Shown: one piece after another, positions 19,972-62,592 of the stretch | Numbering within the stretch: the first letter of the stretch is position 1 | Layout: every line of letters begins with the position of its first letter | NCBI GenBank assembly: GCA_964508345.1 | Contig: CAZDTK010000002.1 | Coordinates: 7,389-71,388 of the forward strand | Origin: an uncultured Actinomycetes bacterium | GTDB taxonomy: Bacteria > Chloroflexota > Dormibacteria > Aeolococcales > Aeolococcaceae | Reading direction: 5' to 3' | DNA: 64,000 bases | Made by a program: the position numbers and the translations under genes | Notes under the pieces: generated by a model | Told to the model about the DNA's origin: nothing | Seen by the model: the letters and a program-made list of their open reading frames with translations, nothing else | The model's database searches: none

Positions 19972-21117
19972 TCAGCGCGACGCCGGGGCGAGGCTGGCGC
20001 GGGCGCGCTCCCGGGCCGTCTCGTAGACGTCAAGGATGCCCTCGACCACCACCCGCCAGTCGTAGCGGCGCGCCTTCTCGATGCCGCGGCCGGCCATGCT
20101 CCGGCGCAGCCCGGGATCGTCGATGAGGGACTCCAGGGCACGGGTGAAGCCCTCCGGCTTGCCCGGTGGCACCAGCAGCCCATCGCCGCCCGGATCGACC
20201 ACCTGGCTGAATCCGGGGATCGCCGAGGCCACCACCGGCAGCCCGCTCGCCATCGCCTCCAGCAGCACGATCCCGAAGCTCTCCCGTCCGGTGGCGGGCG
20301 AACAGAAGACGTCGGCGCCCGCATAGATCTGGGGCAGGACCTGGCCCGAGACGTGCCCCAGGAAGGTGACGTCGGGGACCCCATTGGCCTCGCACTGGCG
20401 CTCGTACGCCCAGCGCATCGGGCCGTCGCCGACGATCACCAGACGGCAGCCCGCTCGCCGGCGGCGGAGCTCCGCGTAGGCGGCGAGCAGGATCGGCAGG
20501 CCCTTGCGCTGCTCCATCCGGCCCACGAAGAGGATGGTCGCGACGCCCGGGACACGGAACTCGGGGGGCGGCTCCAGGTCGGGCCGGAAGCGAGCTCCGT
20601 CGATGCCGTTGGGGACGATCGTGTAGTCGCCCTGGAAGTAGCGGCTGACGAAGTCGCGGGCGGGCTGGCTGACGCAGATCAGGCCGTGGAGGCGGTGGAA
20701 GTAGCGGAGCAGGAACGGCCGGCCGTAGTAGTAGCCGAGGTTGCGGCGGGCCATGGCGTGGAAGGTGCCGACGTTGGCGCCGCGGTGGAAGCGGAGCGTC
20801 GTGATGGGCAGCCCGGGAACCAGCGGCTCGTGGTAGTGGACGACGTCGAAGTCCTCGCGGTCGAGCAGGGAGCGGACCCGGCGGACCAGATGGAAGGAGA
20901 GGGCGATCCGAGCGACCGAGCCGTTGCCGCGGAGCGGGACGCTGCCTCCGATGCGGACGAAACCGGGGATGTCCCGCGTGTCCGCCACCCGGTTGGAGGG
21001 GGCGAGGATGGTGACCTGGTGGTCCCGGCGGCGCAGCTCCTCGGCGAGGTGGCGAACGTGCTCGGTCACCCCGCCGGGGTGGGCGAAGTCGTAGGGGGAG
21101 ACCAGGCAGACCTTCAT
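19972..21117 (-). CDS. pimA: GT4 glycosyltransferase (phosphatidylinositol mannosyltransferase PimA-like)
   Basis: 381 aa. N-terminal MKVCLVSPYDFAHPGGVTEHVRHLAEEL, characteristic of PimA. GT4 C-terminal EX7E region. Confidence 0.8.
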   Translation of the reverse strand: MKVCLVSPYDFAHPGGVTEHVRHLAEELRRRDHQVTILAPSNRVADTRDIPGFVRIGGSVPLRGNGSVARIALSFHLVRRVRSLLDREDFDVVHYHEPLVPGLPITTLRFHRGANVGTFHAMARRNLGYYYGRPFLLRYFHRLHGLICVSQPARDFVSRYFQGDYTIVPNGIDGARFRPDLEPPPEFRVPGVATILFVGRMEQRKGLPILLAAYAELRRRRAGCRLVIVGDGPMRWAYERQCEANGVPDVTFLGHVSGQVLPQIYAGADVFCSPATGRESFGIVLLEAMASGLPVVASAIPGFSQVVDPGGDGLLVPPGKPEGFTRALESLIDDPGLRRSMAGRGIEKARRYDWRVVVEGILDVYETARERARASLAPASR

Positions 21118-21184
21118 CCCGCTGCCGCCCGGGCGCGCGTCGCGAGGCCACCGGGTGCGCGGCGGGCCGGGGCCGGCCGGTCGA

Positions 21185-22189
21185 TCATCGGCCCTCGTCC
21201 CAGATGGGGTCCAGGACGTGCCACTGCTCGGGGTGCTCCCGAATCTCCGCCTCGAAGATGGCGAGGATCTCCAGCACCACCCGGCGCAGCTCCTCGTGCC
21301 GGGGAGCGGTGCGGTCGTAGGCGATCTCCGGGTAGACGCGCACCCCGATCCCTCCGGGGATCCGGGGCAGGATCACGGGCATGATCACCGACCCCGCCCG
21401 CATGGCCACGTCGACGACCCCGACCGGGAAGCGCGCCTCGGCCCCGAAGAAGGGGTAGAGCTCGCCGTTGCCGATCAGGTCCCGGTCCATGGCAAGGGCG
21501 ATGGCACCGCCGCTCTTGAGGATGCGGAGCACGTCGCGCATGGCGGAGGCGCCGAGCCGTCTCGCCGTGGCCTCGTCCGCACCCTTGATGGCGGCGATGT
21601 CGATGGGGACGATGCGCACCCCCTGGGCGCGCCGCGAACCCACCACCCGCTCGAAGAGCTGGGGGGGCCGCAGGTACTCGGCGAGCAGGGCCATCGGGTA
21701 GCCGAGGCTGTTGCCGGCGGCGAGCCCCTTCTCCCACGAGCCGAGGTGGAGCGAGATGACTGCGACACCCCGGCCGCTGGCGGCCGCCTCGATGTAGCGC
21801 TCCATGTGGTCGATGACCAGCCCCTTGCTGATGGCGTCGCCCTCGAAGCGCATCGCCATCACGTCGACCCAGGCGCGGGCGACGTCGCGCAGATTGCGCC
21901 GCACCACCCGGTCGAGCTCCCGGGGCGGGAGATCGGGGAGCACATGGGCGAGGTTGGCGCGTAGCCCGCGGACAGCCCCCGGCCGGACGGTGCGGAGGAC
22001 CTCCACGCAGGCGACGGCCACGCGGTAGGCGGCCGGCCGGGGAAGCACGCGGACGATGCTCTCGCCGACCCGATAGGCGTAGTAGGGCAGCATGGAACCA
22101 CCGTCGTCACCAACGGGAGCGACGGCCCCCGCGGGGACCTCGCCGCTGGGGCCGTGCTCGATGTGACGGCCGACGCTGGTCATCGCCAC
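21185..22189 (-). CDS. LpxL/HtrB-family lipid acyltransferase (PIM acyltransferase PatA-like)
   Basis: 334 aa lysophospholipid-acyltransferase-like protein. Lies between ino1 and pimA, matching the Rv2611c-type acyltransferase of PIM clusters. Confidence 0.75.
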   Translation of the reverse strand: MAMTSVGRHIEHGPSGEVPAGAVAPVGDDGGSMLPYYAYRVGESIVRVLPRPAAYRVAVACVEVLRTVRPGAVRGLRANLAHVLPDLPPRELDRVVRRNLRDVARAWVDVMAMRFEGDAISKGLVIDHMERYIEAAASGRGVAVISLHLGSWEKGLAAGNSLGYPMALLAEYLRPPQLFERVVGSRRAQGVRIVPIDIAAIKGADEATARRLGASAMRDVLRILKSGGAIALAMDRDLIGNGELYPFFGAEARFPVGVVDVAMRAGSVIMPVILPRIPGGIGVRVYPEIAYDRTAPRHEELRRVVLEILAIFEAEIREHPEQWHVLDPIWDEGR

Positions 22190-22222
22190 CCCGGTGAGGC
22201 TCCTGCTACGGGGTGCAGGCTA

Positions 22223-23404
22223 TCAGGCGACGGGGGGGTCGGCCACAGGCTGGGCGACCAGGGACTTGGGCGCCACCGGCTTGGCGTGCCCGTTGCCCCC
22301 GGTGGGCGGGGTGCCCCCCGTGGGTGCGGCACCGGTGCCGGCGATGAACGCCTCGGTGAGCTCGCGGGCCCGGTTGTCCGAGTACTGCTTGGGCGGCGAC
22401 TTCATGAAGTAGGACGAGGGCCCCTCCAGGGTCCCCGACAGGCCGCGGTCCAGCCCCAGCTTGCAGCAGCGGACGGCATCGATGACGATCCCTGCGCTGT
22501 TCGGCGAGTCGACGACCTCCAGCTTCAGCTCCACGTTGATGGGGATGTCGCCGAAGGAGCGACCCTCCATCCGGATGTAGCACCACTTGCGGTCGTCGAG
22601 CCAGCGCACGTAGTCGGACGGGCCGATGTGGATGTTGCGGTCGTCCAGCTTCTGGTCGAGCTGGGAGCGGACGCTGTTGGTCTTGCTGATCTTCTTGCTG
22701 ACCAGGCGCTCGCGCTCCAGCATGTTGAGGAAGTCGGTGTTGCCGCCGAAGTTGAGCTGGTAGGTGTTCTCGATGCGCACCCCGCGATCCTGGAAGAGGC
22801 GGGTCAGGACCCGGTGGATGATGGTGGCCCCGACCTGGGACTTGATGTCGTCGCCGATGACCGGGACGCCCGCCTTGCGGAAGCGCTCCTGCCAGTAGTC
22901 CTCACGGGCGATGAACACGGGCATGCAGTTGACCATGGCGCAGCCGGCGGCCAGGATCTGCTCCGTGTACCACTTGGTGGCCTCCTCGCTGCCCACCGGG
23001 AGGTAGTTGATGACCACATCGGTGCCCGTGTCCTTGAGCACCTGGACGATGTCGGCGGTGGAACCCGGGGCCTTGGTGATCACCTCTTTGAGGTACTTGC
23101 CGAGGCCGTCGTGGGTCATGCCCCGGACCACCTTCACGCCCTTGGCGGGGACGTCGGAGAACTTTGGGGTGCAGTTCTGACCGCTGAAGATGGCCTCGGA
23201 GAGATCCTTGCCCACCTTCTCGACGTCGATGTCGACGGCCGCCGAGAACTCGATGTCGGAGATGTGGTAGCCGCCGAGGTCGACGTGCATGAGACCGGGG
23301 ACCTGCTCGCCCGGCTCCGCGTGCTTGTAGTACTCCACGCCCTGCACCAGGGAGGACGCGCAGTTGCCGACGCCGATGATGGCCACCCGGACCTTGTTGC
23401 TCAT
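22223..23404 (-). CDS. ino1: myo-inositol-1-phosphate synthase
   Basis: 393 aa. N-terminal [18 protein letters not shown] and conserved blocks of bacterial/archaeal Ino1. Unusual C-terminal Pro/Thr/Gly-rich tail of about 35 aa. Confidence 0.9.
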
Positions 23405-24987: not shown

Positions 24988-25064
24988 CCCAGGGTAGCCA
25001 AGCTGGTCAAGGCAACGGTCTGTAAAACCGTGTATCGCTGGTTCGAGTCCAGCCCCTGGGACCA
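24988..25064 (+). tRNA. tRNA-Tyr (anticodon GUA), archaeal/eukaryal-like class I structure with a C1:G72 first pair and a 5-nt variable loop
   Basis: Hand-folded cloverleaf. Acceptor CCCAGGG/CCCTGGG, D-arm GCC-AAGCTGGTCAA-GGC, anticodon stem ACGGT/ACCGT with loop CTGTAAA (U33, G34 U35 A36, A37), variable GTATC, T-arm GCTGG-TTCGAGT-CCAGC, discriminator A, encoded CCA. Bacterial tRNA-Tyr normally has a long variable arm and G1:C72. Confidence 0.75.
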
Positions 25065-26872: not shown

Positions 26873-28327
26873 GTGAGCCCGATCGTGGTCGCCAACCGGG
26901 CCCCGCTCGTGCTGGTGCCAGAGGACCCGCTGCTGGGGCGGCCGGAACGGCTGGTCAAGGGGGCGGGCGGACTGGTGACCGCGCTCTCGTCGCTGGCGGC
27001 GGAGACCGGGGCGCTCTGGGTGGCGGCGGCACGCGACCAGCAGGACCGGCAGCTGGCCGGGCGCGGCGATCCGGCCCACCTCCGCACCGACGACGGCACC
27101 GAATACCGGGTGGCCTTCATCCAGCCCGACGCTGCCGCCTACGACCTCTACTACAACGTCATCGCCAACCCGCTGCTCTGGTTCATCCAGCACTACCTCT
27201 GGGACCTTGCCCGGGAACCGGTGGTCGATGCGTCCACCCGCCACGCCTGGCGCGAGGGCTACGTGGCCGTCAACCGGATGTTCGCTGACCGGGTCGTCGA
27301 GGAGGCGGCCGGGAGCGACCGCCCTCCACTTGTGCTGATCCAGGACTACCAGCTCTATCTGGTCGCCCGAATGGTGCGCGAGCGCCTCCCCGAGGTGCGG
27401 CTGCAGCACTTCGTGCACATCCCCTGGCCGACTCCGCAGTACTGGAAGATCCTGCCCAAACCGATCCGCGACGAGATCGTCCACGGGCTCCTCGGCAACG
27501 ACATCATCGGCTTCCAGACCAGCCGTGACGTGCGCAACTTCCTGCTCACGTGCGAGGAGAACCTGGGGCTCGGGGTCGACCTCCGGGAGCGCACCGTCTA
27601 CTACCAGGGGAGGGCGGTGTGGGTCCGCCACTACCCGATCAGCATCGACATCCCCAGCTTCGCTGAACAGGTCGTCGATCCGCTCGTCCTGGACGAGGAG
27701 CGGCGGATCGAGGGGTGGCGACCCGAGAAGCTGATCCTGCGGGTGGACCGAACCGACCTCAGCAAGAACATCGTCCGCGGCTTTCTCGCCTACGAGCGGA
27801 TGCTGGAGATGCACATCGATCTGCACCGCCGGGTCCAGTTCTGGGCGTTCCTGCAGCCGAGCCGGCAGGACATCGGCGACTACCGCTCCTACCTCGGCAG
27901 CGTGCTCTCAGTGGCGGCGCGGATCAACCGGCGCTTCTCCGGCGGCGGCTGGACGCCGATACGGGTCGAGGTCGAGGAGAACATGCATAAGGCGATCGCC
28001 GCCTACAAGTGCTTCGACGTGCTGCTGGTCAATCCCATCTACGACGGGATGAACCTGGTCGCCAAGGAGGGTCCGCTCTGCAACACCCGCAACGGGGTCC
28101 TCGTCCTCAGTGAGAACGCGGGGGCCCACGAGGAGATCGGGGACTTCGCCCTCACGGTCAACCCCTTCGACATCGACGAGACGGCGGAGGCGCTCCTGAT
28201 GGGGCTGATCATGGAGGAGCCGGAGCGGGCGGCCCGGGCGGAGAGGATGCGCGACACGATACGGAGCAACGACCTCTCCCGCTGGATCGGGAACCAGCTG
28301 CAGGACCTGCGCGAACTGATCGGCTAG
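26873..28327 (+). CDS. otsA: Alpha,alpha-trehalose-phosphate synthase (GT20, OtsA-like)
   Basis: GT20 blocks (IVVANRAP, LIQDYQLYLVA, HIPWP, GFQT, NPIYDGMNLVAKE). The start is uncertain: no in-frame ATG, so a GTG at 26873 is proposed. Confidence 0.75.
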   Translation: MSPIVVANRAPLVLVPEDPLLGRPERLVKGAGGLVTALSSLAAETGALWVAAARDQQDRQLAGRGDPAHLRTDDGTEYRVAFIQPDAAAYDLYYNVIANPLLWFIQHYLWDLAREPVVDASTRHAWREGYVAVNRMFADRVVEEAAGSDRPPLVLIQDYQLYLVARMVRERLPEVRLQHFVHIPWPTPQYWKILPKPIRDEIVHGLLGNDIIGFQTSRDVRNFLLTCEENLGLGVDLRERTVYYQGRAVWVRHYPISIDIPSFAEQVVDPLVLDEERRIEGWRPEKLILRVDRTDLSKNIVRGFLAYERMLEMHIDLHRRVQFWAFLQPSRQDIGDYRSYLGSVLSVAARINRRFSGGGWTPIRVEVEENMHKAIAAYKCFDVLLVNPIYDGMNLVAKEGPLCNTRNGVLVLSENAGAHEEIGDFALTVNPFDIDETAEALLMGLIMEEPERAARAERMRDTIRSNDLSRWIGNQLQDLRELIG

Positions 28328-28464: not shown

Positions 28465-28656
28465 CTAGTGGCCCAGGCCGGCGAAGCCGGCGACAAAGAG
28501 CCAGAAGACCACCGCGGCAATCGCCACCCAGAGGGCGATCAGCCCGGAACGCCGCGCCGCGAAGTCCCGGGCACGGCGCCGCTTGAGCCAGCGCTCCCGA
28601 ACCGCCAGGTCGTCAAGGCCGCTGGGGACGGAGGGTCGTGGCGTGTCAGCCATCAC
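28465..28656 (-). CDS. Small hypothetical membrane protein (63 aa)
   Basis: Basic N-terminus followed by one TM helix LIALWVAIAAVVFWLFVAGFAGL. Divergent from the MerR-like gene. Confidence 0.35.
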   Translation of the reverse strand: MMADTPRPSVPSGLDDLAVRERWLKRRRARDFAARRSGLIALWVAIAAVVFWLFVAGFAGLGH

Positions 28657-28954
28657 ACAACTCCAACGGGGCGGGGACCGGGGCGGTTACGCGGACGGGA
28701 TGCCACTCCACCGCGGGGGCCCGGGGCGGGGCCGGCGTGGCGACGGGCGGGGGAGGGGGGCATCGGCGGTAATGGTGCCACGACGGAGGGTCCTTCCACC
28801 GAACCGGCGGGGGGGGGACCCGGGCGGGGACCCGTCGCCCGATGGGCGGCCCTCGCTTGCGGCTGCGGACCAGCGGCTACCATGCGAGGAGCGGGAAAAC
28901 GCCGGAGGCCCAGGTCACGACCGCCGGCGGCTCCCGGCACTGAGGTGACCACGG
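28657..28954 (+). other. G-tract-rich divergent intergenic region (multiple G4-G9 runs on the + strand)
   Basis: GGGGCGGGGACCGGGGCGG, GGGCGGGGGAGGGGGG and GGCGGGGGGGGGACCCGGGCGGGG. Also an inverted repeat GGTCAC-N27-GTGACC just upstream of the 28955 start. Confidence 0.5.
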
Positions 28955-29302
28955 ATGGCCTCTGCGCCCCACCCCGAAGGCTCACCGCCGAGCCGGCTCG
29001 GCCTCGACAAGCCCATCTACACGATCAGCGTGGCGGCCGAGATCCTGGCCGTCCACCCCCGAACGCTGATGATGTACGAGCATCTGGGACTGGTGGCGCC
29101 CCACCGGACCCCGACCAATCGGCGCCGCTACAGCCAGCGCGACCTGATCACCCTCCAGGCGGTCCAGCGGCTCACCCGGGGGCACGGCCTCAACCTGAAC
29201 GCAGCCCGCCACGTCATCCGGCTCCTGCAGACCCTGGATGCCCACCGGGTCCCGCGACCTGACTTCGTCGCCGACGTGGACATCGCCCACGTCCGCATCT
29301 GA
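28955..29302 (+). CDS. MerR-family regulator, HspR-like (copy 1)
   Basis: 115 aa. LDKPIYTISVAAEILAVHPRTLMMYEHLGLVAPHRT...RRYSQRDL closely resembles the HspR N-terminal HTH (VYVISVAAQL..HPQTLRQYDRLGLVSP). Confidence 0.75.
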   Translation: MASAPHPEGSPPSRLGLDKPIYTISVAAEILAVHPRTLMMYEHLGLVAPHRTPTNRRRYSQRDLITLQAVQRLTRGHGLNLNAARHVIRLLQTLDAHRVPRPDFVADVDIAHVRI

Positions 29303-29471
29303 CTCGGGTCGCCGCCGACTGCGGCCACCGGGACATTCACCACAGCTATCGGATTGGGAGCGCATGGATCGGACGACTGCGCCCGGAGGGGTCCACGCAG
29401 CCCGGCTATACTGCCGGGGGCTTCCGGCGTGAGCGGAGGCGACCCCACCCGGAGGAGGGAAGGCGAAGGCG

Positions 29472-29858
29472 ATGGCGGACGAGGACGCGGTCATCGACGT
29501 CCTCCTCATCGAGGACGATCGGGACACCCTGGAGATGTACCGGACCAAGCTGGAACTGGACGGGTACAGGGTCCAGGTCGCCCTGGACGGGGTGGAGGGC
29601 CTGGAGCTGGCCAAGCGGCTGCTGCCGGACATCATCTTCCTGGACGTCCGTCTCCCCAAGAAGGACGGCTTCGAGGTCCTCCAGGAGCTCCGGCGCCACG
29701 GCCCCACCGCCGAGACCCCGGTGATCATCCTCAGCAACTTCGGGGAGAAGGACCTGGTCGACCGCGGTCTCAAGCTGGGAGCCCTGGAGTTTCTGGTCAA
29801 GGCCCAGACGTCGCCCCTGGCCCTCTCCGAAGGAATCAACGAGTGGCTGAAGGAGTAG
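29472..29858 (+). CDS. Single-domain response regulator (CheY-like receiver only)
   Basis: 128 aa. Acidic pocket IEDD, phospho-acceptor FLDVRLP (Asp), conserved T/S and K (LSNFGEKDLVDRGLKLGALEFLVKA). No output domain. Confidence 0.85.
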   Translation: MADEDAVIDVLLIEDDRDTLEMYRTKLELDGYRVQVALDGVEGLELAKRLLPDIIFLDVRLPKKDGFEVLQELRRHGPTAETPVIILSNFGEKDLVDRGLKLGALEFLVKAQTSPLALSEGINEWLKE

Positions 29859-30202
29859 CCGGGGGCAGACCCGGGAGTGGTCCGCTGCCCGGCTCGCCGG
29901 GCCTTGACAAGCCCATCTACACCATCAGCGTCGCCGCCGAGATCCTGGAGACGCACCCCCGCACCCTGATGATGTACGAGAACGTTGGCCTGGTCGTGCC
30001 TCAGCGCACATCGACCAATCGCCGGCGGTTCTCGCAGCGGGACATCTACAAGCTCCAGACCATCCAGACCCTCACCCGCGAGCACGGGGTCAACCTCACC
30101 GGCGTCCGCTACGTGCTGGCCCTGCTCAAGACGCTCCACGACCACGGCATCCCCCCTCCCGACAGCCTCAAGGACATCGATGTCGCGGCCCTGAAGATAT
30201 GA
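29843..30202 (+). CDS. MerR-family regulator, HspR-like (copy 2)
   Basis: Paralogue of 28955..29302 (LDKPIYTISVAAEILETHPRTLMMYENVGLVVPQRT...). No in-frame ATG. Proposed GTG at 29843 overlaps the REC gene 3' end by 16 nt. Confidence 0.65.
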   Translation: MAEGVAGGRPGSGPLPGSPGLDKPIYTISVAAEILETHPRTLMMYENVGLVVPQRTSTNRRRFSQRDIYKLQTIQTLTREHGVNLTGVRYVLALLKTLHDHGIPPPDSLKDIDVAALKI

Positions 30203-30248: not shown

Positions 30249-30686
30249 ATGATGGCCTCCCGGGACCCCTCCGCCTCCGCGGCCCCTTCGTCGCCGCCAC
30301 TCGTCGACCTGCTGCGGGCCATCCTGGACGATGCGCTGCGGGTCGCCCGGGCTGAGCTGAAGCTGGTCAAGGTGGAGGGCATCGCCACCGGCAAGCGCGG
30401 CGCCATCGGCGTGGGGCTGCTGGCCGCAGCCGCCGTTTCCGCCTTCCTCGTGGTCGTCTTTCTGCTGGGAGCCGCCGCCGAGGCGATCGGCGGGCTGCTC
30501 GGCCACCGCTGGCTGGGCTGGCTGATCATCGCCGGGCTGTGCGTGCTGATCGCGGTCGCCCTGGGCTGGCTCGGCTACCGCACGGTGAAGAGGGCAATCG
30601 CCGAAGGCCGCAGGGTCGGTGCCACCGTCATGGAGGACCTGGAGTGGGTCAGGGAGTTGCCGAAGCAGAGCGCGAACGGGAGCTGA
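30249..30686 (+). CDS. Putative actinobacterial Holin-X family (holin superfamily III-like) membrane protein
   Basis: 145 aa. Two TM helices flanking the LRVARAELKLVKVEGIATGKRGAIG pattern typical of this family. In actinobacteria it is usually a stress-membrane protein rather than a phage holin. Confidence 0.6.
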   Translation: MMASRDPSASAAPSSPPLVDLLRAILDDALRVARAELKLVKVEGIATGKRGAIGVGLLAAAAVSAFLVVVFLLGAAAEAIGGLLGHRWLGWLIIAGLCVLIAVALGWLGYRTVKRAIAEGRRVGATVMEDLEWVRELPKQSANGS

Positions 30687-31087
30687 GCAAGCAGGCGCTT
30701 GCCGCTCACGTGACGGCTCTGGACGCCCGGGTTCGGGCAGAGCTCGACTGGAGGGCACGGCTCCGGCGCGACGGGCTGCGCTACGCCATCATCGGCGTCG
30801 CGGCGCTGGCCGTCACCGTGTCGGTGGTGGTGCTCCGGTCACGGCGCCGTCGCCCAGAGCCGGCGCCGCTCACGGTGACGTCGCTCGACGACATCGCGGC
30901 CCAGCTCGAGGAGATCAGGGACGAGCTGGCCCGCCGCCGCAAGCAGAGCGAGCCCCTCTGGCAGAGGCTGGCGGTGCGAGCCGCCACCACCGCCGCAGCA
31001 GCCGGCGGGAACGCCGTCGCCCGCAGGGTGATGGAATCCTTCGGCGCCGGCGTCCCGGGCCCCGGCGAGGAGTCGGGCGGCGGCTGA
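30644..31087 (+). CDS. Hypothetical membrane-anchored coiled-coil protein (DUF3618-like)
   Basis: GTG start with GGAGGA 7 nt upstream. Overlaps the previous gene by about 40 nt. Coiled-coil, one TM, then a second coiled-coil. Confidence 0.45.
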   Translation: MGQGVAEAERERELSKQALAAHVTALDARVRAELDWRARLRRDGLRYAIIGVAALAVTVSVVVLRSRRRRPEPAPLTVTSLDDIAAQLEEIRDELARRRKQSEPLWQRLAVRAATTAAAAGGNAVARRVMESFGAGVPGPGEESGGG

Positions 31088-35730: not shown

Positions 35731-36999
35731 TCAGTTCAGGCTGGCACTCAGCAGGGTGGGCTCCGCCCCGTCGGCCTCGGCGGCCTCGTCGAAGGACTCC
35801 TTCGGAGAGTCCCCGTACCAGAGCGTGCCATTGGGCCCCCCCGTCCCGGTCGTGACCCGCTCCCCGGCAGCCGTGGCGACGACCTGCAGGTCTCCCGCCA
35901 TCTCCGCCTGGCCACCGGCGGCGACCGCGATCTGCTGGGCGGTGGCCGAGACCTGACGGCTGGCCACGCTCACCTGCTCCATCGCCTCCACCACCTGTTC
36001 CGAGGCGGAGCGCTGCTGCTGGGTCGCGAGCCGCACGTTCGAGCTGGCCTCGGCCACCTGCTCCATCAGCCCGAGGCCGATCTGGAGCTGGGCGGCGCCC
36101 TCCTCCATGGCGATGACCGTGGCACTCGTCTCGGACTCGGCGTTCTCGGTGATCGTGGAGATGTCGGCCGCCAGCGCCTTGGAGCGGTCGGCGAGGCGCC
36201 GGACCTCGTCGGCCACCACCGCGAAGCCGCGGCCGGCCTCACCGGCGCGGGCGGCCTCGATGGCGGCGTTCAGGGCGAGCAGGTTGGTCTGGTCCGCGAT
36301 GTCGTTGATGAGGTTGAGGATGCGGCCGATATCGCGGACCCGGTCGGTGAGGGCCACGGTGCGCTGCCCGGAGGTGAGGATGCGCTCGTGGGCTCGGTCC
36401 AGGTTGTCCCGGGTCTCGGCGGCCTGGGTGGCCACCCGCTCGACGGTCTCGGCGATGTGGGCCGAGGTCCGGGCCAGCTCCTCCATGCTCGCCGAGGTCT
36501 CCACGGCGGCCGAGGTCTGCTGGGCGGTGGTGGAGACCAGCTGGGTGGAGGCCTCGGAGAGGCGGGCCGCAGAGGCGGCCAGCTCGCCGCTCACGTCCCG
36601 GACGCGCTCGACCATGCCCCCGAGCCGGTCGACCATGAGGTTGGACGCGATCCCCAGCTCGCGCAGCTCGGCGGCACCCCCCGGCGTGACCCGGGCGGTG
36701 ACGTCCCCGGCGGCGACCCGGCGGGCCAGCTGCCCCAGCGCGTTGATGTGCTCGGTCTCGCGGCTGGCGACCAGGGCGGCACCGGCCCCGAGGAGGACCA
36801 CGCCGGCCAGCCCGAGCAGGAGGGCCGCGGTGCGAACCTCGGCGACCGCGCCGGAGGGCAGGCCGCTGCCCGAGGTGACGGCGACCAGCACCACGATGAG
36901 GAGGCCCATCACGACGACGCCCGAGACGACGACCCCCGCGACGACCCGGACGAGGAACCGATCCAGCATCCTTCGCGCGGTAGCTCCAAGGTTGACCAT
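35731..36999 (-). CDS. Methyl-accepting chemotaxis protein (short-sensor paralogue)
   Basis: Two TM helices with a very short periplasmic loop, HAMP, and a signalling domain about 90% identical to the MCP at 13176..15269. ATG start with GGAGG 6 nt upstream. Confidence 0.8.
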
Positions 37000-37216
37000 G
37001 ACGGCCTCCATCCGTGCCACGCCCGGTCGGTGCGGCTTCCGGTTCGGCTCTCAGATGTAGCACCGCGGGGAGGGCCGGGGACGTGAGGTTTGCGTGACGT
37101 CCTGCTCACAGTCCGGCACGGAGAGATCCACCGGCACCGGGTCCGGCCCTCATGCGGCACGCTGGCCGCGGCCGGGTCAGGGCCGGCCAGGGGGGCGAAT
37201 GCCCGGGGAGACGATC

Positions 37217-37549
37217 TCAGCGACGGGCGAGCAGCTCCGTCAACGGCCCGGCATGGCCGGCGAGAATCTCGTGAAGCTCGAGGAGCTCGTCGCCCGAGAT
37301 CGGCGCGGCGGTCGGGGTGCCACCCTCGTCCAGGTCGGCGCGGGCGGGAAGCGTCTCGGAGGCCTCCACCTCGGTCTGGAAGATGATCTGGAGCAGGTTC
37401 TCGTCGTTGCAGGAGCGGCAGGTGACCCGGACCAGGGCCCGGTTGCCCTCCTGGGCGAGCACGTTGATGCCGCACTCCGCCATGCTCTCCCCGCACTGGA
37501 CGCAGCGGTACCGGCGCGCCTGGGAGCGGAGCAGCTGGACGAGATCCAC
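37217..37549 (-). CDS. Hypothetical zinc-ribbon protein
   Basis: 110 aa. CVQCG...C...CRSC arrangement. Located downstream of the GGDEF/EAL gene. Confidence 0.35.
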   Translation of the reverse strand: MDLVQLLRSQARRYRCVQCGESMAECGINVLAQEGNRALVRVTCRSCNDENLLQIIFQTEVEASETLPARADLDEGGTPTAAPISGDELLELHEILAGHAGPLTELLARR

Positions 37550-37624
37550 CGCTCAAGTATAGGCAGCCTGCGACCAAGGCCAAGGCGGGACAACGCCCCA
37601 GATCTCTCGATCGGAGCAGCCCGG

Positions 37625-40030
37625 CTAGGAGACTCGAGCTCCCTCGGGGGTCAGACCGGCCGCGCTGGGGAGCCTGAGGACGACGTCGCGCTCGTCCCGC
37701 GCGTACTCCCGGTGCAGCAGGGCGGCCAGGTCGTCCAGGTCCACCGGCCGTGAGTAGTAGTCGCCCTGCGCAAACCGGCAGCCCATCTCGCGGAGGCGGC
37801 CCACCTGGTGGATGGTCTCCACGCCCTCCGCGATCACCTCCAGGTCGAGGATCCTCGCCATGGCGAGGATGGCGCGGGCGATCGGAGCCGTCTCCCCCGC
37901 TCCCACCATGTCCCTGATGAAGGCGCGGTCCACCTTGAGGATGTCGAAGTCGCACATCGTCAGGTAGGTGAGCGATGAGTACCCGGCCCCGAAGTCGTCG
38001 ATGGCCAGCCGTATCCCCATCTCCTTGAGCATGGTGAGGGTGCGCACGGTGGCCTCGTTGTCCCGGAGCAGCGCCGACTCGGTCACCTCCATGGTGAGCT
38101 GCTCGGGCGGGATGCCGGCGCTGCTCAGCGCCTCGCGAACGTCGTCGACCAGGTCGCGACCACGGATCGAGAAGGGTGAGAGGTTGACGCTCACCGAGAG
38201 CCGGGCCCGCCCGGGGAGCTGGGAGCGGACCCTGCGCAACCCGTCGAGCGCCTCGCGCAGCACCCAGCGCTCCACCTCGCTGATGATCCCGATCTCCTCG
38301 GCGACGGGGATGAAATCCAGGGGTGAGATCAGCCCACGGGTCGGGTGCTGCCAGCGCACCAGCGCCTCGAAGCCCTGCACCCGAGACGTCTCCATGTCGA
38401 CGATGGGCTGGAACTGCACGCGCAGCTCCGAGTCGTCGAGGGAGTGGAGGAGGTCGGACTCGAGCTCCATGCGGGCGAGCGCGGCCGCGTACATCTGCGG
38501 CTCGAAGAGCACGTAACGGTTCTTGCCACCCGCCTTGGCCCGGTACATGGCCACGTCGGCGTTGCGGAGCAGGTCGCTGGCCCCATGGTCGGCGACGCTC
38601 GAGATGGCCACCCCGATGCTGGCGCTCGCCGCGACCCGCTTGCCCTCGAGGAGGAAGGGGTTCTCCAGGGCGGCGAGCAGGCGTCGGGCCAGGCCGATGG
38701 CGTCGGCCGGCCGCCGCGCGTTCTCCATCAGGATCGCGAACTCGTCGCCGCCCAGCCGGCCGGCGAAGTCGCCGCGGCGCAGGCAGGCGCGGATCCTGTC
38801 CCCGATCTGCACCAGCAGCTCGTCGCCCGCAGAATGGCCGAGGCTGTCATTGATGACCTTGAAGCCGTCGACGTCGAAGTAGAGCAGGGCGAAGCGGCAA
38901 CCCTGACGGCGGTTGCGCACCGCGGCCTGCTCCAGCCGCCGAACGAAGAGCGCGCGACTGGCCAGGCCGGTGAGCCCGTCCTGGTAGGCGAGCTCCATCG
39001 CCTCGACGGTGCGCGCGTCGGTCAGGGCAAGGCTTGCGTGCTGGGCAAAGGCCTCGAGCGCCTCGCGCTCCACGGTGCGGTAGCGGCGATCGGGAGTGGC
39101 CGAGCCCACCATCAGCGCTCCGACCGGCCGGCCCTGCTCGTGAACCGGGGCGGCCATGGCGCACACCAACCCCATCTGGGCGAGCCACTCCATCTCCTCG
39201 CTGCCGCCGGTGAAGGAGTCGGCGGCGACGACCTGGTTGCCGCCGATCGCCTGACCGAGGAATCCGCCCGTGGCCGGGAGCCGGTGCACCCGAATACGGA
39301 CTTCCTCGGAGAGCCCCACCGAGGACATGAGGACGGTGGATCGGGGATCACCGGGGTCGATGATGCGCAGGGACGCGACGCTGTCCCCCAGCAGCTCGGC
39401 GGCGCCCGCCGTGATGGCATGCAGCACCTCGGGGAGGGGGGCTCGGTGGGAGATCGAGCGCTGGATGCGGGAGAGCCGCTCGAGGAGCAGCTGCCGCTCC
39501 TGCAGGGAGGCGGCCAGGGCGGCATTCTCGCTGGCCCGGCGCTCGCTCATGGCCCGGGCCCCTCTCTCCGCCTCGAGCAGACGCAGCGTCTCCTGGCTCA
39601 TCCGGAGCGCGCCGGCCATGCCGCGCAGGAGGTTGATCTCCTCGGGCATGAACCGCTGGTCGCCCAGACGGGCCAGCACAACGTAGCTGGAGGCGCGCGC
39701 CGCCAGCGGAACCGAGACTGCGGTGATGCGTCCCAGCCCGGGCAGCTCCACGACCCGGGAGCGGGTCTTCCCGGCCACGGCGATCAGCTCCGGCGGGGCG
39801 GGTCCGTCCAGTCCGATCGCCTGCACGGCCTGTCCGCTCTGGACCAGCAGCGCGATCTCCGCCTCCAGGGTCTCGGCGGCGTTCTCCAATCCGAGCCGCA
39901 CCGCCGTCGCCTCGTCGGGGGAGTGCACGAGCGCCGAGAGGTACTCCACCAGCTGATGGGTGGCCCACCAGTCGGGGCGCACCTCGGTGACTGCGGGATG
40001 CGGGGCGGCTGGGCGTTCCAAGCGATTCAT
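37625..40030 (-). CDS. Cyclic-di-GMP turnover protein: GAF domain(s) + GGDEF + EAL
   Basis: 801 aa. RLGGDEFAIL (GGDEF), EALVRW and the downstream EAL motifs. N-terminal GAF-like regions. Confidence 0.9.
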   Translation of the reverse strand: MNRLERPAAPHPAVTEVRPDWWATHQLVEYLSALVHSPDEATAVRLGLENAAETLEAEIALLVQSGQAVQAIGLDGPAPPELIAVAGKTRSRVVELPGLGRITAVSVPLAARASSYVVLARLGDQRFMPEEINLLRGMAGALRMSQETLRLLEAERGARAMSERRASENAALAASLQERQLLLERLSRIQRSISHRAPLPEVLHAITAGAAELLGDSVASLRIIDPGDPRSTVLMSSVGLSEEVRIRVHRLPATGGFLGQAIGGNQVVAADSFTGGSEEMEWLAQMGLVCAMAAPVHEQGRPVGALMVGSATPDRRYRTVEREALEAFAQHASLALTDARTVEAMELAYQDGLTGLASRALFVRRLEQAAVRNRRQGCRFALLYFDVDGFKVINDSLGHSAGDELLVQIGDRIRACLRRGDFAGRLGGDEFAILMENARRPADAIGLARRLLAALENPFLLEGKRVAASASIGVAISSVADHGASDLLRNADVAMYRAKAGGKNRYVLFEPQMYAAALARMELESDLLHSLDDSELRVQFQPIVDMETSRVQGFEALVRWQHPTRGLISPLDFIPVAEEIGIISEVERWVLREALDGLRRVRSQLPGRARLSVSVNLSPFSIRGRDLVDDVREALSSAGIPPEQLTMEVTESALLRDNEATVRTLTMLKEMGIRLAIDDFGAGYSSLTYLTMCDFDILKVDRAFIRDMVGAGETAPIARAILAMARILDLEVIAEGVETIHQVGRLREMGCRFAQGDYYSRPVDLDDLAALLHREYARDERDVVLRLPSAAGLTPEGARVS

Positions 40031-40042
40031 GCAGGTCGCAGG

Positions 40043-41247
40043 TCAGGAGATCGCCAGCGCGACGAGCGTCTGATTGTGGAATCCGCTGCCGCCACGAACC
40101 CGCGCGATCTCGCCATACCCGTAGAGGCCGGCCAGCGGCGCCCCGCGTGAATGCTGGACCATCCGCTCGACCTCCACCGCGGTTCCCTCGTCGCCGAGCG
40201 CAACCTTGCGGCCCACGCAGTCGAAGGCGAGCAGCCCGATCGGAGGCCGGCCGCCCAGAGCCCTGACGGCATCGGCGCAGGCGTGGCCGGCGGATTCGAG
40301 CACCGACGCTCTGGTGCACTCCATGAACGAGGTCATGGCGCCACTTGGGACCACTGCGTTGCAGGAGATCGCGCGGGTCTCGAAGTCGGCCCGGAACACG
40401 CAGCGCAGCCGGTCACCGCTGCGACGGCTGAGCCCGAGCGGATGGGTGACCGCGAAGCGGGTGAAGGCTGCCTGGTCCCGGTAGCACTCGGCTGGGGCCT
40501 CGAGCCTGCCCAGGTAGACGTCCATCGCCGGCTCGTCGTCGAGGGTGAGGAGCGTGTTCGCATGGGTGCCGGTCACCAGGAGCGGCTCGCCGAACGGTCG
40601 CCAGCCGTGGCGGACGCCGATGCCGAAGGGGGCGTCCGAGCCGAGCGCGGCCGCGACCACCGAGTCGGCCAGGACGTCGCCGCCGCGGAGCTGCCGGGTG
40701 GAGGTCATGCGCAGGTCGTCGGCTGCGGCCCCCCCGACCATGGCGACGGCTGCCCCGGCCACGCCGTAGGCGCCGCGGATGATCTCCAGCTGATCACAGG
40801 CGAGGCCGTCGGTGAAGAGCATCAGGACCCGGTGGGGACGGGCGCCCAGCGCACGGACGCAGGCGGCCGCCTCCGCGCCGGCCTGGCGGAGCCGGGAACC
40901 GATCCCCGTGGCGGCGGCGGTCGCGGCGGAGAAGCCGGAGCCGCCCAGGGCCAAGACCACCACCCCACCGCTGGAGGGCCCGCTCGGAGCGATCTCTCCG
41001 GCGGTGGTCGAACCGACCAGGAGCGCGTCACCGCTCACGGCGCGGACCCCCTCGAGCAGATCGTCCAGATCGTGAACGGGAGAGCAGAGGACGATCAGGA
41101 GCGCGGCGTCGGGATGGAGCATCGCCTTGCGAGCCGCCTCGCGGCCCGCCGCCTTCGACCCCGGGGCGGTGGAGCGACCCACCGCCACCCAGCGATCCTG
41201 TGACGCGGCCGGCGCGCGCGGGACCTCGCCCCACGTGCTCGTGCTCA
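40043..41247 (-). CDS. FIST-domain signal-transduction sensor protein (FIST_N + FIST_C)
   Basis: About 400 aa. GTG start preceded by AGGAGGAGG. Conserved FIST layout. Adjacent to the GGDEF/EAL gene, with a 13-nt gap. Confidence 0.75.
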
Positions 41248-41524
41248 CCCCAGCCTCCTCCTGGCCCCCGGCCCTCGCCGTTCGCGTCGGCGCGCGGGCA
41301 GGGTGAAGGGTGGCACTCCGCGCGCGGGATGGCCGGGGCGCCATGGAGCCGTCAAACTTCCATCACCTGCGCTGGGGCGGATTTGATCCCGCGCGACCCG
41401 GTGTCGATCGGAGGTCGGCGCCGGCCCGTGGAAGGACCCCGGCGACCGTTGCAGGTGGCTCCCTCGCCCGCGGAGACGGAGCAGCCGGGGGAGGGCGCCA
41501 CTGCGGGTAAACTCGCGAACGCCG

Positions 41525-41599
41525 CTGGGGAGTGGCCAAGTGGTAAGGCAGCTGACTCTGGATCAGCCAATCGCAGGTTCGAATCCTGCCTCCCCAGCC
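41525..41599 (+). tRNA. tRNA-Gln (anticodon CUG)
   Basis: TGGGGAG...CTCCCCA acceptor with U1:A72. Anticodon stem CTGA/TCAG, loop CTCTGGA. T-arm GCAGGTTCGAATCCTGC. Encoded CCA. Confidence 0.85.
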
Positions 41600-61608: not shown

Positions 61609-61770
61609 GGTGAGCCTCCCAACCAACCCCCCGGTGATGCAGGGGCACTGTGATGCTAGTGTCCTGGCTCGGAACTTCGTCGAGCAGAGCGTGGCCGGCC
61701 CATGCGAGCCGATCGGGAGCCCGAGCCATCCGCTCCGCCCGGTCACGGTCGCCGACCAGGACGTCGCTCT

Positions 61771-62592
61771 ATGATGATAGCGACGATGGCGGATGTTACT
61801 GTGCCTGACACTCAGCTTTCTCAACCTGCGCCGCGGGGAAAGCGCGCTGCTCCGACGAACTCAGAGCGCCCACCGGGCGGAGGAACGACCCGCGCCGGCG
61901 CCTCTGCGCATGCGGGTTCGGAGGCACTGCTCCTCGACATCGCCGTCCACGAGCTGCGCTCCCCGCTCACCGTCATCCAGGGCTACGCGTCACTGCTGGA
62001 GGGCGGCGACCTGGGAGGGCTGGAGGCCCCCGCACAGAAGGCGGTCCGGGTCATCGCGACCAAGGCGCGCGAGGCTCAGGAGATCGCCACCTCGCTGCTC
62101 ACCGTGGCCCGATTGGAGAGCAACGAGCTGAACATCGAGAGCACGACGACTCCGCTCTGCCCGCTCCTGGAGACCGCCCTCGAGAGGGTCAGGCCGCGCC
62201 TCGAGCTGGCCGGCGCCGCCCTCGACGTGGAGTGCCCCGCCGGCTTGGAGGCGCTCGCCGACGCCGACCTGGTGACGCGAATCCTGGACAACCTTGTCAA
62301 CAACGCTCTTATCTACTCCGACCCCCCGGCCGCGGTATCGCTGGTGGCCCGTCCGGGCGCCACCTGGGTCGAGATCCGCGTCAGCGACCGTGGACCGGGG
62401 GTTGCCGAGGCGGACCGGGAGCGGATCTTCGAGCGCTTCGTCCGGGGGGCGGGGGCCGAGCGTGCCGCCGGGACCGGGCTGGGCCTCTACATCAGCCGCG
62501 AATGCGCCCGCCGCATGGGCGGCGACCTCACCCTGGAGGAGAGCGGCCCCGGCCGGGGCAGCACCTTCCTGCTCTGCCTGCCGGCGGTCTGA
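61771..62592 (+). CDS. Cytoplasmic sensor histidine kinase (HisKA + HATPase_c, no TM)
   Basis: H-box HELRSPLTVIQGY. N, G1 and G2 boxes (NLVNNALIYS, DRGPGV, GTGLGL). Confidence 0.75.
   Translation: MMIATMADVTVPDTQLSQPAPRGKRAAPTNSERPPGGGTTRAGASAHAGSEALLLDIAVHELRSPLTVIQGYASLLEGGDLGGLEAPAQKAVRVIATKAREAQEIATSLLTVARLESNELNIESTTTPLCPLLETALERVRPRLELAGAALDVECPAGLEALADADLVTRILDNLVNNALIYSDPPAAVSLVARPGATWVEIRVSDRGPGVAEADRERIFERFVRGAGAERAAGTGLGLYISRECARRMGGDLTLEESGPGRGSTFLLCLPAV

What the first reader, a model, noticed from the sequence alone, without database searches (positions are those of the whole stretch)
28955..30202. Two paralogous HspR-like MerR regulators flanking a stand-alone CheY-like receiver (MerR-REC-MerR)
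Both small regulators (115 and about 120 aa) share the HspR-type N-terminal HTH (LDKPIYTISVAAEIL..HPRTLMMYE.LGLV.P). The 128-aa gene between them is a receiver domain with no output domain. The second MerR appears to start inside the 3' end of the receiver gene, which implies translational coupling. A phospho-receiver co-encoded with duplicated heat-shock-repressor-like DNA binders is an unusual regulatory arrangement. The receiver might modulate one or both MerR proteins, for example by a partner-switch.
Basis: partly seen in the sequence, partly recalled or inferred. Interest (0 to 1): 0.6.

Follow-up and report, generated by a model that had tools for sequence, protein, structure and literature searches.

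The report
Receiver gene coupled to HspR-like regulators
An uncultured soil bacterium (class Dormibacteria) carries a small, class-wide conserved operon in which a stand-alone phospho-receiver gene overlaps the start of a short HspR-like DNA-binding protein gene, with a second paralogue just upstream; this looks like a two-component output split into separate proteins, but contact between the proteins is inferred, not shown.

Summary
MerR1 (28955-29302), a 128-aa receiver with all phospho-acceptor residues (29472-29858) and MerR2 (29843-30202, GTG start 16 nt inside the receiver gene) are real genes. The two MerR proteins are 61% identical.

The duplication is old and the genes are maintained:
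- 72 of 77 informative species-level Dormibacteria loci keep the triad.
- All 81 receiver-MerR2 pairs keep an ATG/GTG/TTG start at the same -16 position.
- All three genes are under purifying selection.
- One clade has a second receiver-MerR pair.

The MerR proteins are a narrow HspR-related subfamily. They score below NCBI's HspR cut-off, lack HspR's long C-terminal helix, and have GlnR/TnrA as their closest solved relatives. I found no HAIR operator and no chaperone genes nearby. The operon continues into two membrane-protein genes and sits next to trehalose-phosphate synthase, which points to envelope, osmotic or desiccation stress rather than classical heat shock.

Best reading (about 0.4): a split response regulator, in which the phosphorylated receiver controls MerR2, and perhaps MerR1, by protein contact. 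This rests on gene context only. Verdict: an uncharacterised new variant of known parts, of moderate interest.

The parts
26873..28327 (+). otsA-like trehalose-6-phosphate synthase (GT20), the conserved upstream neighbour
   Evidence: Pfam Glyco_transf_20 E=3.6e-109. It lies upstream of the triad in most clade-1 loci, followed by otsB in L003. The GTG start at 26873 was chosen by homology.
28465..28656 (-). Conserved 63-aa single-pass membrane protein, transcribed divergently from merR1
   Evidence: The ORF is. It is 45-92% identical across clade-1 loci. It has no Pfam family.
28664..28690 (-). ECF-sigma-like promoter motif GTAACC-N16-CGTTG, directly upstream of the 63-aa gene
   Evidence: This block is conserved in the alignment; coordinates are. 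The assignment to an ECF sigma rests on my own knowledge of the GGAAC-N16/17-CGTT consensus and is an inference.
28772..28781 (.). Conserved block ATGGTGSCAC. Its reverse complement shares the core ACCAT with the block at 28876 (function unknown; possibly a divergent -10 box or a binding site)
   Evidence: Invariant in the closest clade. The pairing between the two blocks shows no covariation, so an RNA stem is not supported.
28876..28883 (+). Conserved GCTACCAT, putative -10 box (TACCAT) of merR1, about 75 nt upstream of its ATG
   Evidence: Conserved; coordinates. Its function is inferred.
28955..29302 (+). MerR1: 115-aa HspR-related MerR-type regulator (upstream paralogue)
   Evidence: Forms its own orthologous group. 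Median dN/dS 0.35.
29348..29374 (+). Direct repeat ATCGGAT-N13-ATCGGAC, about 35-60 nt upstream of the -10 box; a weak operator candidate
   Evidence: It is the only exact match in 64 kb. The distal copy, ATC(G/C)GAT, is kept in the nearest relatives but not across the class.
29407..29412 (+). TATACT -10 box (context CTATACTGC) of the REC-merR2 operon promoter
   Evidence: It is the only intergenic element conserved across the whole class. It is retained even in the lineage that lost REC and MerR1.
29472..29858 (+). Stand-alone CheY-like receiver (REC), 128 aa, with intact phospho-acceptor site
   Evidence: Pfam PF00072 E=9e-24 and no other domain. Orthologues are all 125-160 aa and receiver-only. 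Median dN/dS 0.22.
29843..30202 (+). MerR2: 119-aa HspR-related MerR-type regulator. Its GTG start overlaps REC by 16 nt (29843-29858)
   Evidence: The start position is conserved in 81 of 81 pairs. Median dN/dS 0.22.
30249..30686 (+). Membrane protein of the 'actinobacterial Holin-X' family (PF07332), downstream in the same operon
   Evidence: Pfam E=2.3e-18. It follows MerR2 in clade-1 loci, with a 4-nt overlap in L001.
30644..31087 (+). Conserved 147-aa coiled-coil/transmembrane protein of unknown family, overlapping the Holin-X gene's end
   Evidence: GTG start with a GGAGGA Shine-Dalgarno sequence.

Best explanation
The unit is a stress-response operon of Dormibacteria. merR1 has its own promoter. 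A second promoter (-10 box TATACT at 29407) then drives REC, merR2, a Holin-X-family membrane protein and a further membrane protein.

Its core is the REC-MerR2 pair, which I read as a response regulator split into two polypeptides. An unlinked histidine kinase phosphorylates REC at D58. REC and MerR2 are made in fixed proportion, because MerR2's ribosome-binding site and start codon lie inside the end of the REC gene. Phosphorylated REC binds MerR2, and probably MerR1, through their paralogue-specific C-terminal half and conserved tail. This changes their dimerisation or DNA binding, much as glutamine synthetase controls the related tail-bearing regulators GlnR and TnrA.

Both paralogues carry the same DNA-reading surface, so they should compete for, or share, the same operators. 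Likely targets are their own promoters and genes for envelope, osmotic or desiccation stress, not the classical HspR chaperone regulon.

Shown: gene identities, intact phospho-site, conservation, coupling, operon context.
Inferred: the kinase, the REC-MerR contact, the effect on DNA binding, the targets.
For: Conservation:
- The triad is kept in 72 of 77 informative species-level loci.
- The REC-MerR2 overlap has an NTG start at -16 in 81 of 81 pairs. Clade 2 uses GAT-TGG (TTG start) and never GAC-TGG, despite more than 90% GC at third codon positions.
- A second REC-MerR pair, with the MerR start 3-5 nt after the REC stop, exists in clade 2, so the pair behaves as a module.
- In the lineage that lost REC, a 26-codon remnant reading frame still ends on MerR2's start (GTGA) behind the same promoter.
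- All three genes are under purifying selection.

Protein features:
- The closest solved relatives are GlnR and TnrA (E=1e-10 and 5e-5). Their DNA binding is controlled by a partner protein acting on the C-terminal tail (PMC4335299, PMC9249791).
- No long C-terminal helix is predicted.
- The DNA-reading half is identical in the two paralogues. The six fixed differences all lie after residue 46.

Precedent:
- A response regulator that binds and recruits HspR: M. tuberculosis PhoP (PMC7464140, citing Sevalkar 2019).
Against: - There is no direct evidence of contact.
- The mirror-tree partial correlation for REC-MerR2 is 0.22, no higher than for the other pairs in the operon.
- No REC-MerR fusion protein appears among the 150 best representative clusters.
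- No operator conserved across the class was found. The dyads near the promoter vary in sequence although the DNA-binding residues are invariant.
- MerR2 persists without REC in three lineages.
- No kinase lies nearby.
- The AlphaFold model of MerR2 has low confidence (pLDDT 68).
Confidence: 0.4

Rival explanations
1. The genes are co-expressed but act independently. MerR1 and MerR2 work like ordinary HspR-type repressors, whose activity is set by heat or by titration of a chaperone. The receiver is a separate signalling branch: a phosphate sink, or a regulator of another target such as the downstream membrane proteins. The gene overlap only secures co-expression.
For: - HspR is the best family match for both MerR proteins.
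- The mirror-tree test shows no specific REC-MerR2 co-evolution.
- MerR2 occurs without REC in L040, L055 and L080, and in the more distant relative P0137.
- No REC-MerR fusions were found.
Against: - The overlap and start codon are kept in 81 of 81 pairs, and the pair is duplicated as a unit. That is more than co-expression would require.
- No HAIR and no chaperone genes were found.
- Both proteins lack the C-terminal helix of HspR.
Confidence: 0.3
2. Partner switch between the paralogues. MerR1 and MerR2 form homo- and heterodimers on the same operators. Phosphorylated REC sequesters one of them and so shifts the balance between repressing and activating dimers.
For: - The DNA-reading surfaces are identical, and the paralogue-specific residues lie only in the C-terminal half.
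- Tandem-fused HspR-like proteins exist, which shows that two such domains can work together.
- MerR1 and REC were both lost in the L040/L055 lineage by separate deletions, since the promoter between them survives.
- The MerR1-MerR2 partial correlation is 0.37, the second highest in the operon (weak evidence).
Against: - MerR1 is absent while REC-MerR2 is kept in L017 and L046, so REC-MerR2 works without MerR1.
- In clade 2 the upstream copy is MerR2-like rather than MerR1-like.
- There are no interaction data.
Confidence: 0.15
3. A recent local duplication with one decaying copy, or a chance juxtaposition of unrelated small genes.
For: None found.
Against: - The upstream and downstream copies form separate orthologous groups across about 50 species.
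- Both copies are intact, with dN/dS of 0.22-0.35.
- The arrangement is present in 72 of 77 species loci.
Confidence: 0.01

Closest known systems
HspR, heat-shock repressor of Streptomyces, Mycobacterium, Helicobacter and Campylobacter (NCBIfam NF047375)
   Same: MerR-type winged helix-turn-helix. HspR is the best family match for both proteins (E=1e-24 and 4e-27), with roughly half the residues identical to a Streptomyces-type HspR over the DNA-binding domain (my reading of P0133).
   Different: - Scores are below the curated cut-off.
- The profile match ends at position 77 of 92, and no long C-terminal helix is predicted.
- The genes are not in or near a dnaK, clpB or groE operon.
- No HAIR was found.
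- There are two paralogues, and they are coupled to a receiver gene.
GlnR and TnrA of Bacillus (PDB 4r4e, 4r22, 4r24, 7tea; PMC4335299, PMC9249791)
   Same: Closest solved structures by sequence. They are also small MerR-like proteins without the coiled coil, with a C-terminal tail through which a partner protein (glutamine synthetase) switches DNA binding.
   Different: - The score is far below the TnrA family cut-off (27.8 against 140 bits).
- The tail sequences are unrelated.
- There is no glutamine synthetase gene nearby.
- The putative partner here is a receiver domain.
M. tuberculosis PhoP acting on HspR and HrcA (Sevalkar et al. 2019, as cited in PMC7464140)
   Same: A response regulator that physically interacts with an HspR-type repressor and so links phosphorelay to its regulon.
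   Different: PhoP is a full OmpR-type regulator with its own DNA-binding domain and is encoded elsewhere. Here the receiver has no output domain and its gene overlaps the MerR gene.
Single-domain response regulators that act by protein contact (CheY-FliM, Spo0F, DivK, CpdR, SdrG; from my own knowledge)
   Same: A stand-alone receiver with an intact phospho-site and no output domain.
   Different: To my knowledge none of these is paired with a MerR-type DNA-binding protein. A text search for 'single-domain response regulator' together with 'MerR' returned only four papers, none apparently relevant by title and abstract opening; I did not read them.
BldC of Streptomyces (PMC5859096)
   Same: A MerR-like DNA binder without a coiled coil. 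It binds direct repeats as head-to-tail multimers, and a direct repeat lies upstream of the REC promoter here.
   Different: BldC has 68 residues and no tail. The score is below the BldC cut-off (18.6 against 77 bits).
HspR, fused homodimer type (NCBIfam NF047377)
   Same: Two HspR-like domains working together. MerR2 aligns best to the first half of this profile and MerR1 to the second half. Examples are P0129 and P0133.
   Different: Those are single polypeptides with long helices after each domain. Here there are two separate short proteins with a receiver gene between them.

Membership tests
HspR (NF047375 equivalog) | N-terminal MerR-type winged HTH of HspR sequence type | tested here: met
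   Pfam MerR_1/MerR hits. HspR is the top NCBIfam hit for both proteins.
HspR (NF047375 equivalog) | Whole-protein score at or above the curated cut-off of 105 bits | tested here: not met
   MerR1 scores 85.9 bits and MerR2 94.0 bits.
HspR (NF047375 equivalog) | Extended C-terminal helix after the DNA-binding domain | tested here: not met
   The profile match stops at position 76-77 of 92. In the AlphaFold model the last helix spans residues 85-100 and is followed by a proline-rich tail (this part of the model has pLDDT 79-92). Bona fide and fused HspR proteins show long helices.
HspR (NF047375 equivalog) | HAIR operator (CTTGAGT-N7-ACTCAAG) in target promoters | tested here: inconclusive
   There are no matches with up to 3 mismatches in the window. 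In 0.85 Mb of related loci the matches (up to 3 mismatches) lie almost all inside the REC coding sequence, none at a recognised promoter. Chaperone-gene promoters of these genomes were not available for testing.
HspR (NF047375 equivalog) | Encoded in or next to a chaperone operon (dnaK-grpE-dnaJ-hspR, clpB) | tested here: not met
   The neighbours are otsA, a 63-aa membrane protein, Holin-X, a penicillin-binding protein and sugar-modifying enzymes. No chaperone gene was found among the window genes scanned.
HspR (NF047375 equivalog) | DnaK acts as co-repressor | not testable with these tools
   This needs biochemistry.
TnrA/GlnR | Small MerR-like winged HTH without a coiled coil, plus a C-terminal regulatory tail | tested here: met
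   The best PDB sequence matches are GlnR 4r4e (E=1e-10) and TnrA (5e-5). The final helix is short and is followed by a conserved tail.
TnrA/GlnR | Family score cut-off (NF053740, 140 bits) | tested here: not met
   22.9 and 27.8 bits.
TnrA/GlnR | Regulated by glutamine synthetase; linked to nitrogen genes | tested here: not met
   No glnA or other nitrogen genes occur in the operon or its flanks. The interaction itself is not testable here.
CheY-like receiver (PF00072), single-domain response regulator | Receiver fold above Pfam's gathering score, with no other domain | tested here: met
   84.2 bits against a cut-off of 30.2; 128 aa. All 120 listed orthologues are receiver-only.
CheY-like receiver (PF00072), single-domain response regulator | Acidic pair, phospho-acceptor Asp, Ser/Thr, aromatic switch residue and Lys | tested here: met
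   D15/D16, D58, S87, F106 and K109, read from the translation. D15, D16, D58, S88-column and K110-column are invariant in alignment A4.
CheY-like receiver (PF00072), single-domain response regulator | Cognate histidine kinase encoded next to it | tested here: not met
   No kinase lies within about 5-8 kb in the window or the related loci. The nearest kinase in the window is at 61702-62592.
Classical MerR-type activator | Dyad operator inside a 19-20 bp spacer between the -35 and -10 boxes | tested here: inconclusive
   The -10 box TATACT is conserved, but there is no recognisable -35 box. Dyads just upstream of the -10 box exist in most lineages but differ in sequence.
Classical MerR-type activator | Long dimerisation helix plus a C-terminal effector-binding region | tested here: not met
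   The proteins are 115-119 aa, and the last helix is about 16 residues long.
BldC | Family score cut-off (NF033787, 77 bits) | tested here: not met
   18.6 bits for MerR1.

The most novel reading that the evidence does not exclude
REC and MerR2 form a previously undescribed kind of two-component output. In this reading a stand-alone receiver, made in fixed proportion from an overlapping gene, switches a coiled-coil-less HspR-type DNA binder on or off by binding its conserved C-terminal tail, as glutamine synthetase does with GlnR/TnrA. MerR1 acts as a second, competing reader of the same operators. The system would be the class-wide stress switch of Dormibacteria, linking a phosphorelay to trehalose and envelope-stress genes.
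Probability: 0.3. Interest if true: 0.65.

Novelty: new variant of a known kind. Interest (0 to 1): 0.45.

Why it matters
Response regulators almost always carry their DNA-binding domain on the same chain. MerR-type outputs are rare (this is from my own knowledge; I could not verify it in the library). A receiver and a MerR-type protein kept as two overlapping genes across a whole bacterial class would be a clean natural case of a split regulator. It would also extend the GlnR/TnrA principle, in which a partner protein controls a tail-bearing MerR-like binder, to phosphorelay signalling.

The system would further give a first handle on stress regulation in Dormibacteria. This is an abundant, uncultured group of soil and desert bacteria whose survival is thought to depend on dormancy and on compatible solutes such as trehalose. 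All the parts are small, soluble proteins, so binding and gel-shift experiments with synthetic genes are feasible without culturing the organism.

Tried and rejected
- HAIR search. No match in the window. In the related loci, almost all matches with up to 3 mismatches lie inside the REC coding sequence for LEMY.LKLE. I treat these as a coding coincidence.
- Structured RNA upstream of merR1. Rfam finds nothing. The invariant ATGGT...ACCAT pairing has no covariation and a variable interior, so I rejected an RNA stem.
- Leader of the REC operon as an RNA thermometer. There is no consensus structure.
- Operator discovery by footprinting and inverted-repeat counting. Only the -10 box is conserved across the class. 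The dyads next to it change sequence between lineages while the DNA-binding residues do not, so they are unlikely to be the operator.
- The inverted repeats at the 3' ends of the MerR genes follow from Asp-Val/His-Val codons (GACGTC is its own reverse complement). I rejected them as signals.
- AlphaFold model of MerR2. Mean pLDDT is 68, the HTH region is poorly modelled, and the Foldseek matches are meaningless.
- REC-linker-MerR2 paired alignment for a pseudo-complex prediction.
- Rosetta-stone search for REC-MerR fusions. None of the longer proteins I scanned among the 150 best representative clusters has a receiver domain. I found tandem MerR-MerR and MerR-BON fusions instead.
- Context of more distant subfamily members. 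The contigs were too short or lacked a receiver gene.
- Mirror-tree co-evolution test. No specific REC-MerR2 signal.
- Literature search. I found no paper describing this arrangement.
Full report
**Observation.** The window is very GC-rich (third codon positions about 90% G+C). At the given coordinates there are three real genes on the + strand.
- MerR1 is 28955-29302 (115 aa).
- A receiver-only protein, REC, is 29472-29858 (128 aa).
- MerR2 is 29843-30202 (119 aa).

Pfam assigns MerR_1/MerR to both small regulators, and Response_reg and nothing else to the middle protein. The receiver has the acidic pair D15/D16, the phospho-acceptor D58, S87, F106 and K109, so it looks functional. MerR1 and MerR2 are 61% identical (E=9e-49). 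The only start codon available to MerR2 is the GTG at 29843. It lies 16 nt inside the end of REC, behind a GAAGGA Shine-Dalgarno sequence that is itself part of the REC coding sequence.

**Origin and conservation.** The closest proteins and loci come almost entirely from metagenome-assembled genomes labelled Candidatus Dormibacteria or Dormibacterota; some carry other, probably loose, labels. A scan of one genome per species found 353 matching stretches, and I examined the best 80 loci.
- Of 77 loci not cut by a contig end, 72 carry MerR-REC-MerR in this order.
- Two loci (L017, L046) carry REC-MerR2 without the upstream MerR.
- Three loci (L040, L055, L080) carry MerR2 alone.

In all 81 REC-MerR2 pairs the MerR2 start sits at exactly -16 from the end of REC. 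The codon is GTG, ATG or TTG. In the second clade the REC codon is always GAT (giving TTG) and never the synonymous GAC (giving CTG), despite the strong GC bias at third positions. This is good evidence that the overlapping start is used and is under selection.

Further points on conservation:
- Median dN/dS against the window is 0.35 for MerR1, 0.22 for REC and 0.22 for MerR2, compared with 0.31 for the neighbouring otsA.
- In a neighbour-joining tree the upstream and downstream copies form separate orthologous groups across about 50 species. The duplication is therefore old and neither copy is decaying.
- In the second clade (L054-L085) the upstream copy is MerR2-like, and a further REC-MerR pair lies about 5 kb away on the other strand. 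Its MerR starts 3-5 nt after the REC stop. The receiver-MerR pair thus behaves as a module.

**A natural deletion.** The L040/L055 lineage has neither MerR1 nor REC. It still has the REC promoter box and leader, followed by a 26-codon remnant reading frame whose stop overlaps MerR2's GTG (GTGA). The promoter that lies between the two lost genes survives, so they were lost by separate deletions. Coupling of MerR2 translation to an upstream reading frame was kept.

**What kind of MerR proteins are these?** HspR is the best NCBIfam match for both proteins. However, they score 85.9 and 94.0 bits against a cut-off of 105, and the match covers only profile positions 1-77 of 92.

Against 1.84 billion representative proteins, only 12 clusters reach E<=1e-30, so the full-length type is a narrow subfamily. 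The closest solved structures by sequence are Bacillus GlnR (4r4e, E=1e-10) and TnrA. These are small MerR-like proteins that lack the family's long dimerisation helix. Their DNA binding is switched by glutamine synthetase acting on a C-terminal tail (PMC4335299, PMC9249791).

An AlphaFold model of MerR2 has modest confidence overall (pLDDT 68) but is confident for residues 70-119. It shows a last helix of only about 16 residues, followed by the conserved proline-rich tail ..HG.PPP..L.DIDV..L...

The DNA-reading half (residues 22-66) is essentially identical in the two paralogues. The six positions that are fixed but different between them all lie after residue 46. The paralogues should therefore read the same DNA and differ in whom they bind. 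Tandem-fused HspR-like proteins exist (NF047377; P0129, P0133), which shows that two such domains can act together.

**Context.** MerR2 is followed by a membrane protein of the 'actinobacterial Holin-X' family (30249-30686) and by a conserved 147-aa protein with a transmembrane segment (30644-31087). Upstream lie a divergently transcribed conserved 63-aa membrane protein and trehalose-6-phosphate synthase, with the phosphatase as well in some relatives. Further neighbours are a class A penicillin-binding protein and sugar-nucleotide and glycosyltransferase genes.

I found no chaperone gene among the window genes I scanned. No HAIR operator occurs in the window or in a promoter within 0.85 Mb of related loci. 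The setting points to envelope, osmotic or desiccation stress rather than the classical HspR regulon. This is an inference from neighbours, not a demonstrated regulon.

**Promoters and operators.** The one intergenic element conserved across the whole class is a -10 box, CTATACTGC (29407-29412 in the window), about 60 nt upstream of REC. merR1 therefore has its own promoter (probably the conserved GCTACCAT at 28876), and REC-merR2 and the downstream genes have another.

I could not find an operator conserved across the class. Dyads next to the -10 box occur in most lineages, but their sequences differ while the DNA-binding residues stay invariant. This argues against them being the binding site. 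In the window, an exact direct repeat ATCGGAY-N13-ATCGGAY lies at 29348-29374. It is a candidate operator, but it is conserved only among the closest relatives.

**Mechanism.** The best-supported reading (about 0.4) is a split response regulator, as follows.
- An unlinked kinase phosphorylates REC.
- REC and MerR2 are produced together.
- Phosphorylated REC binds the C-terminal half or tail of MerR2, and perhaps of MerR1.
- This binding changes dimerisation or DNA binding.

The support is the invariant coupling, the module-like duplication, the GlnR/TnrA analogy, and the precedent of M. tuberculosis PhoP binding and recruiting HspR (PMC7464140, citing Sevalkar et al. 2019).

The evidence against it is real:
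- A mirror-tree test gave a REC-MerR2 partial correlation of 0.22, no higher than other pairs in the operon. The highest value, 0.50, is for the two membrane proteins.
- No REC-MerR fusion appeared among the best 150 representative clusters.
- MerR2 can exist without REC.
- The decisive complex prediction could not be run.

The main rival (about 0.3) is that the MerR proteins act like ordinary HspR-type repressors and the receiver is an independent branch that is merely co-expressed. It is weakened by the lineages that keep REC-MerR2 without MerR1.

**Novelty.** Every part belongs to a known family. I found no description of this arrangement in the searchable literature. It is best filed as a new variant of a known kind: an uncharacterised, class-wide conserved pairing of a single-domain receiver with a coiled-coil-less HspR-related regulator. 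Interest is moderate (0.45). The conservation and coupling are striking and the system is easy to test in vitro, but the central mechanistic claim is still only gene-context inference.

Noticed in passing
L056:5400-5560 (the same element occurs in L054-L085; it is not in the window): In the second Dormibacteria clade the spacer between the upstream MerR and REC holds a nearly invariant insert. It has a consensus promoter TGTTGACA-N17-TATAAT, then a C/U-rich stretch (CUUGCCCCCCUCUUC), then a GC hairpin GGCCCUCC/GGAGGGCC with a U-run. This looks like a roughly 55-60 nt small RNA with an anti-Shine-Dalgarno-like sequence. Rfam has no match.
   Followed up: partly
window 28664-28690 (- strand): A conserved GTAACC-N16-CGTTG motif lies directly upstream of the 63-aa membrane-protein gene. 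It resembles ECF-sigma promoters (GGAAC-N16/17-CGTT) and leaves almost no leader before the GTG start.
   Followed up: partly
L040:4860-5010 and L055:2020-2170: In the lineage without REC and MerR1, the REC promoter and leader survive, with a 26-codon remnant of REC (N-terminal and C-terminal fragments). Its stop overlaps the MerR2 start (GTGA).
   Followed up: yes
L056:1-547, L059:1-546 and others (- strand): There is a second receiver-MerR pair (REC2, about 62% identical to REC, and MerR3 with the motif YEDLGLIEPYRT). It lies about 5 kb from the triad, with a class A penicillin-binding protein gene in between. The loci end inside MerR3.
   Followed up: partly
window 61702-62592 (+): A small (296 aa) histidine kinase (HisKA + HATPase_c). 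No response-regulator gene is recognisable next to it. It is a candidate orphan kinase, 32 kb from the receiver.
   Followed up: partly
window 35731-41344 (- strand): A signalling cluster: a methyl-accepting chemotaxis protein (HAMP + MCPsignal), a 110-aa protein without a family, a GAF-GGDEF-EAL protein and a FIST-domain protein. A second MCP with a dCache domain lies at 13176-15269.
   Followed up: no
window 19972-23404 (- strand): Myo-inositol-1-phosphate synthase, a lipid A-type acyltransferase and a GT4 glycosyltransferase lie in a row. This resembles the actinobacterial phosphatidylinositol-mannoside pathway and is notable for a Chloroflexota-related lineage.
   Followed up: no
window 29401-29418: In the window the -10 box is flanked by a perfect inverted repeat, CCCGGC-TATACT-GCCGGG. 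Relatives keep it only partly, so it may be chance in GC-rich DNA.
   Followed up: partly
L029:4687-4707, L085:4693-4713 and other loci (inside REC): A HAIR-like sequence, CTCGAGATGTACnnnCTCAAG (2-3 mismatches to the HspR operator), sits inside the REC coding region for LEMY.LKLE in many relatives. The window version has 5 mismatches. This is probably a coding coincidence.
   Followed up: partly
window 24988-25061 and 41526-41597: Two tRNA genes. They are the only Rfam matches in the window at gathering threshold.
   Followed up: no
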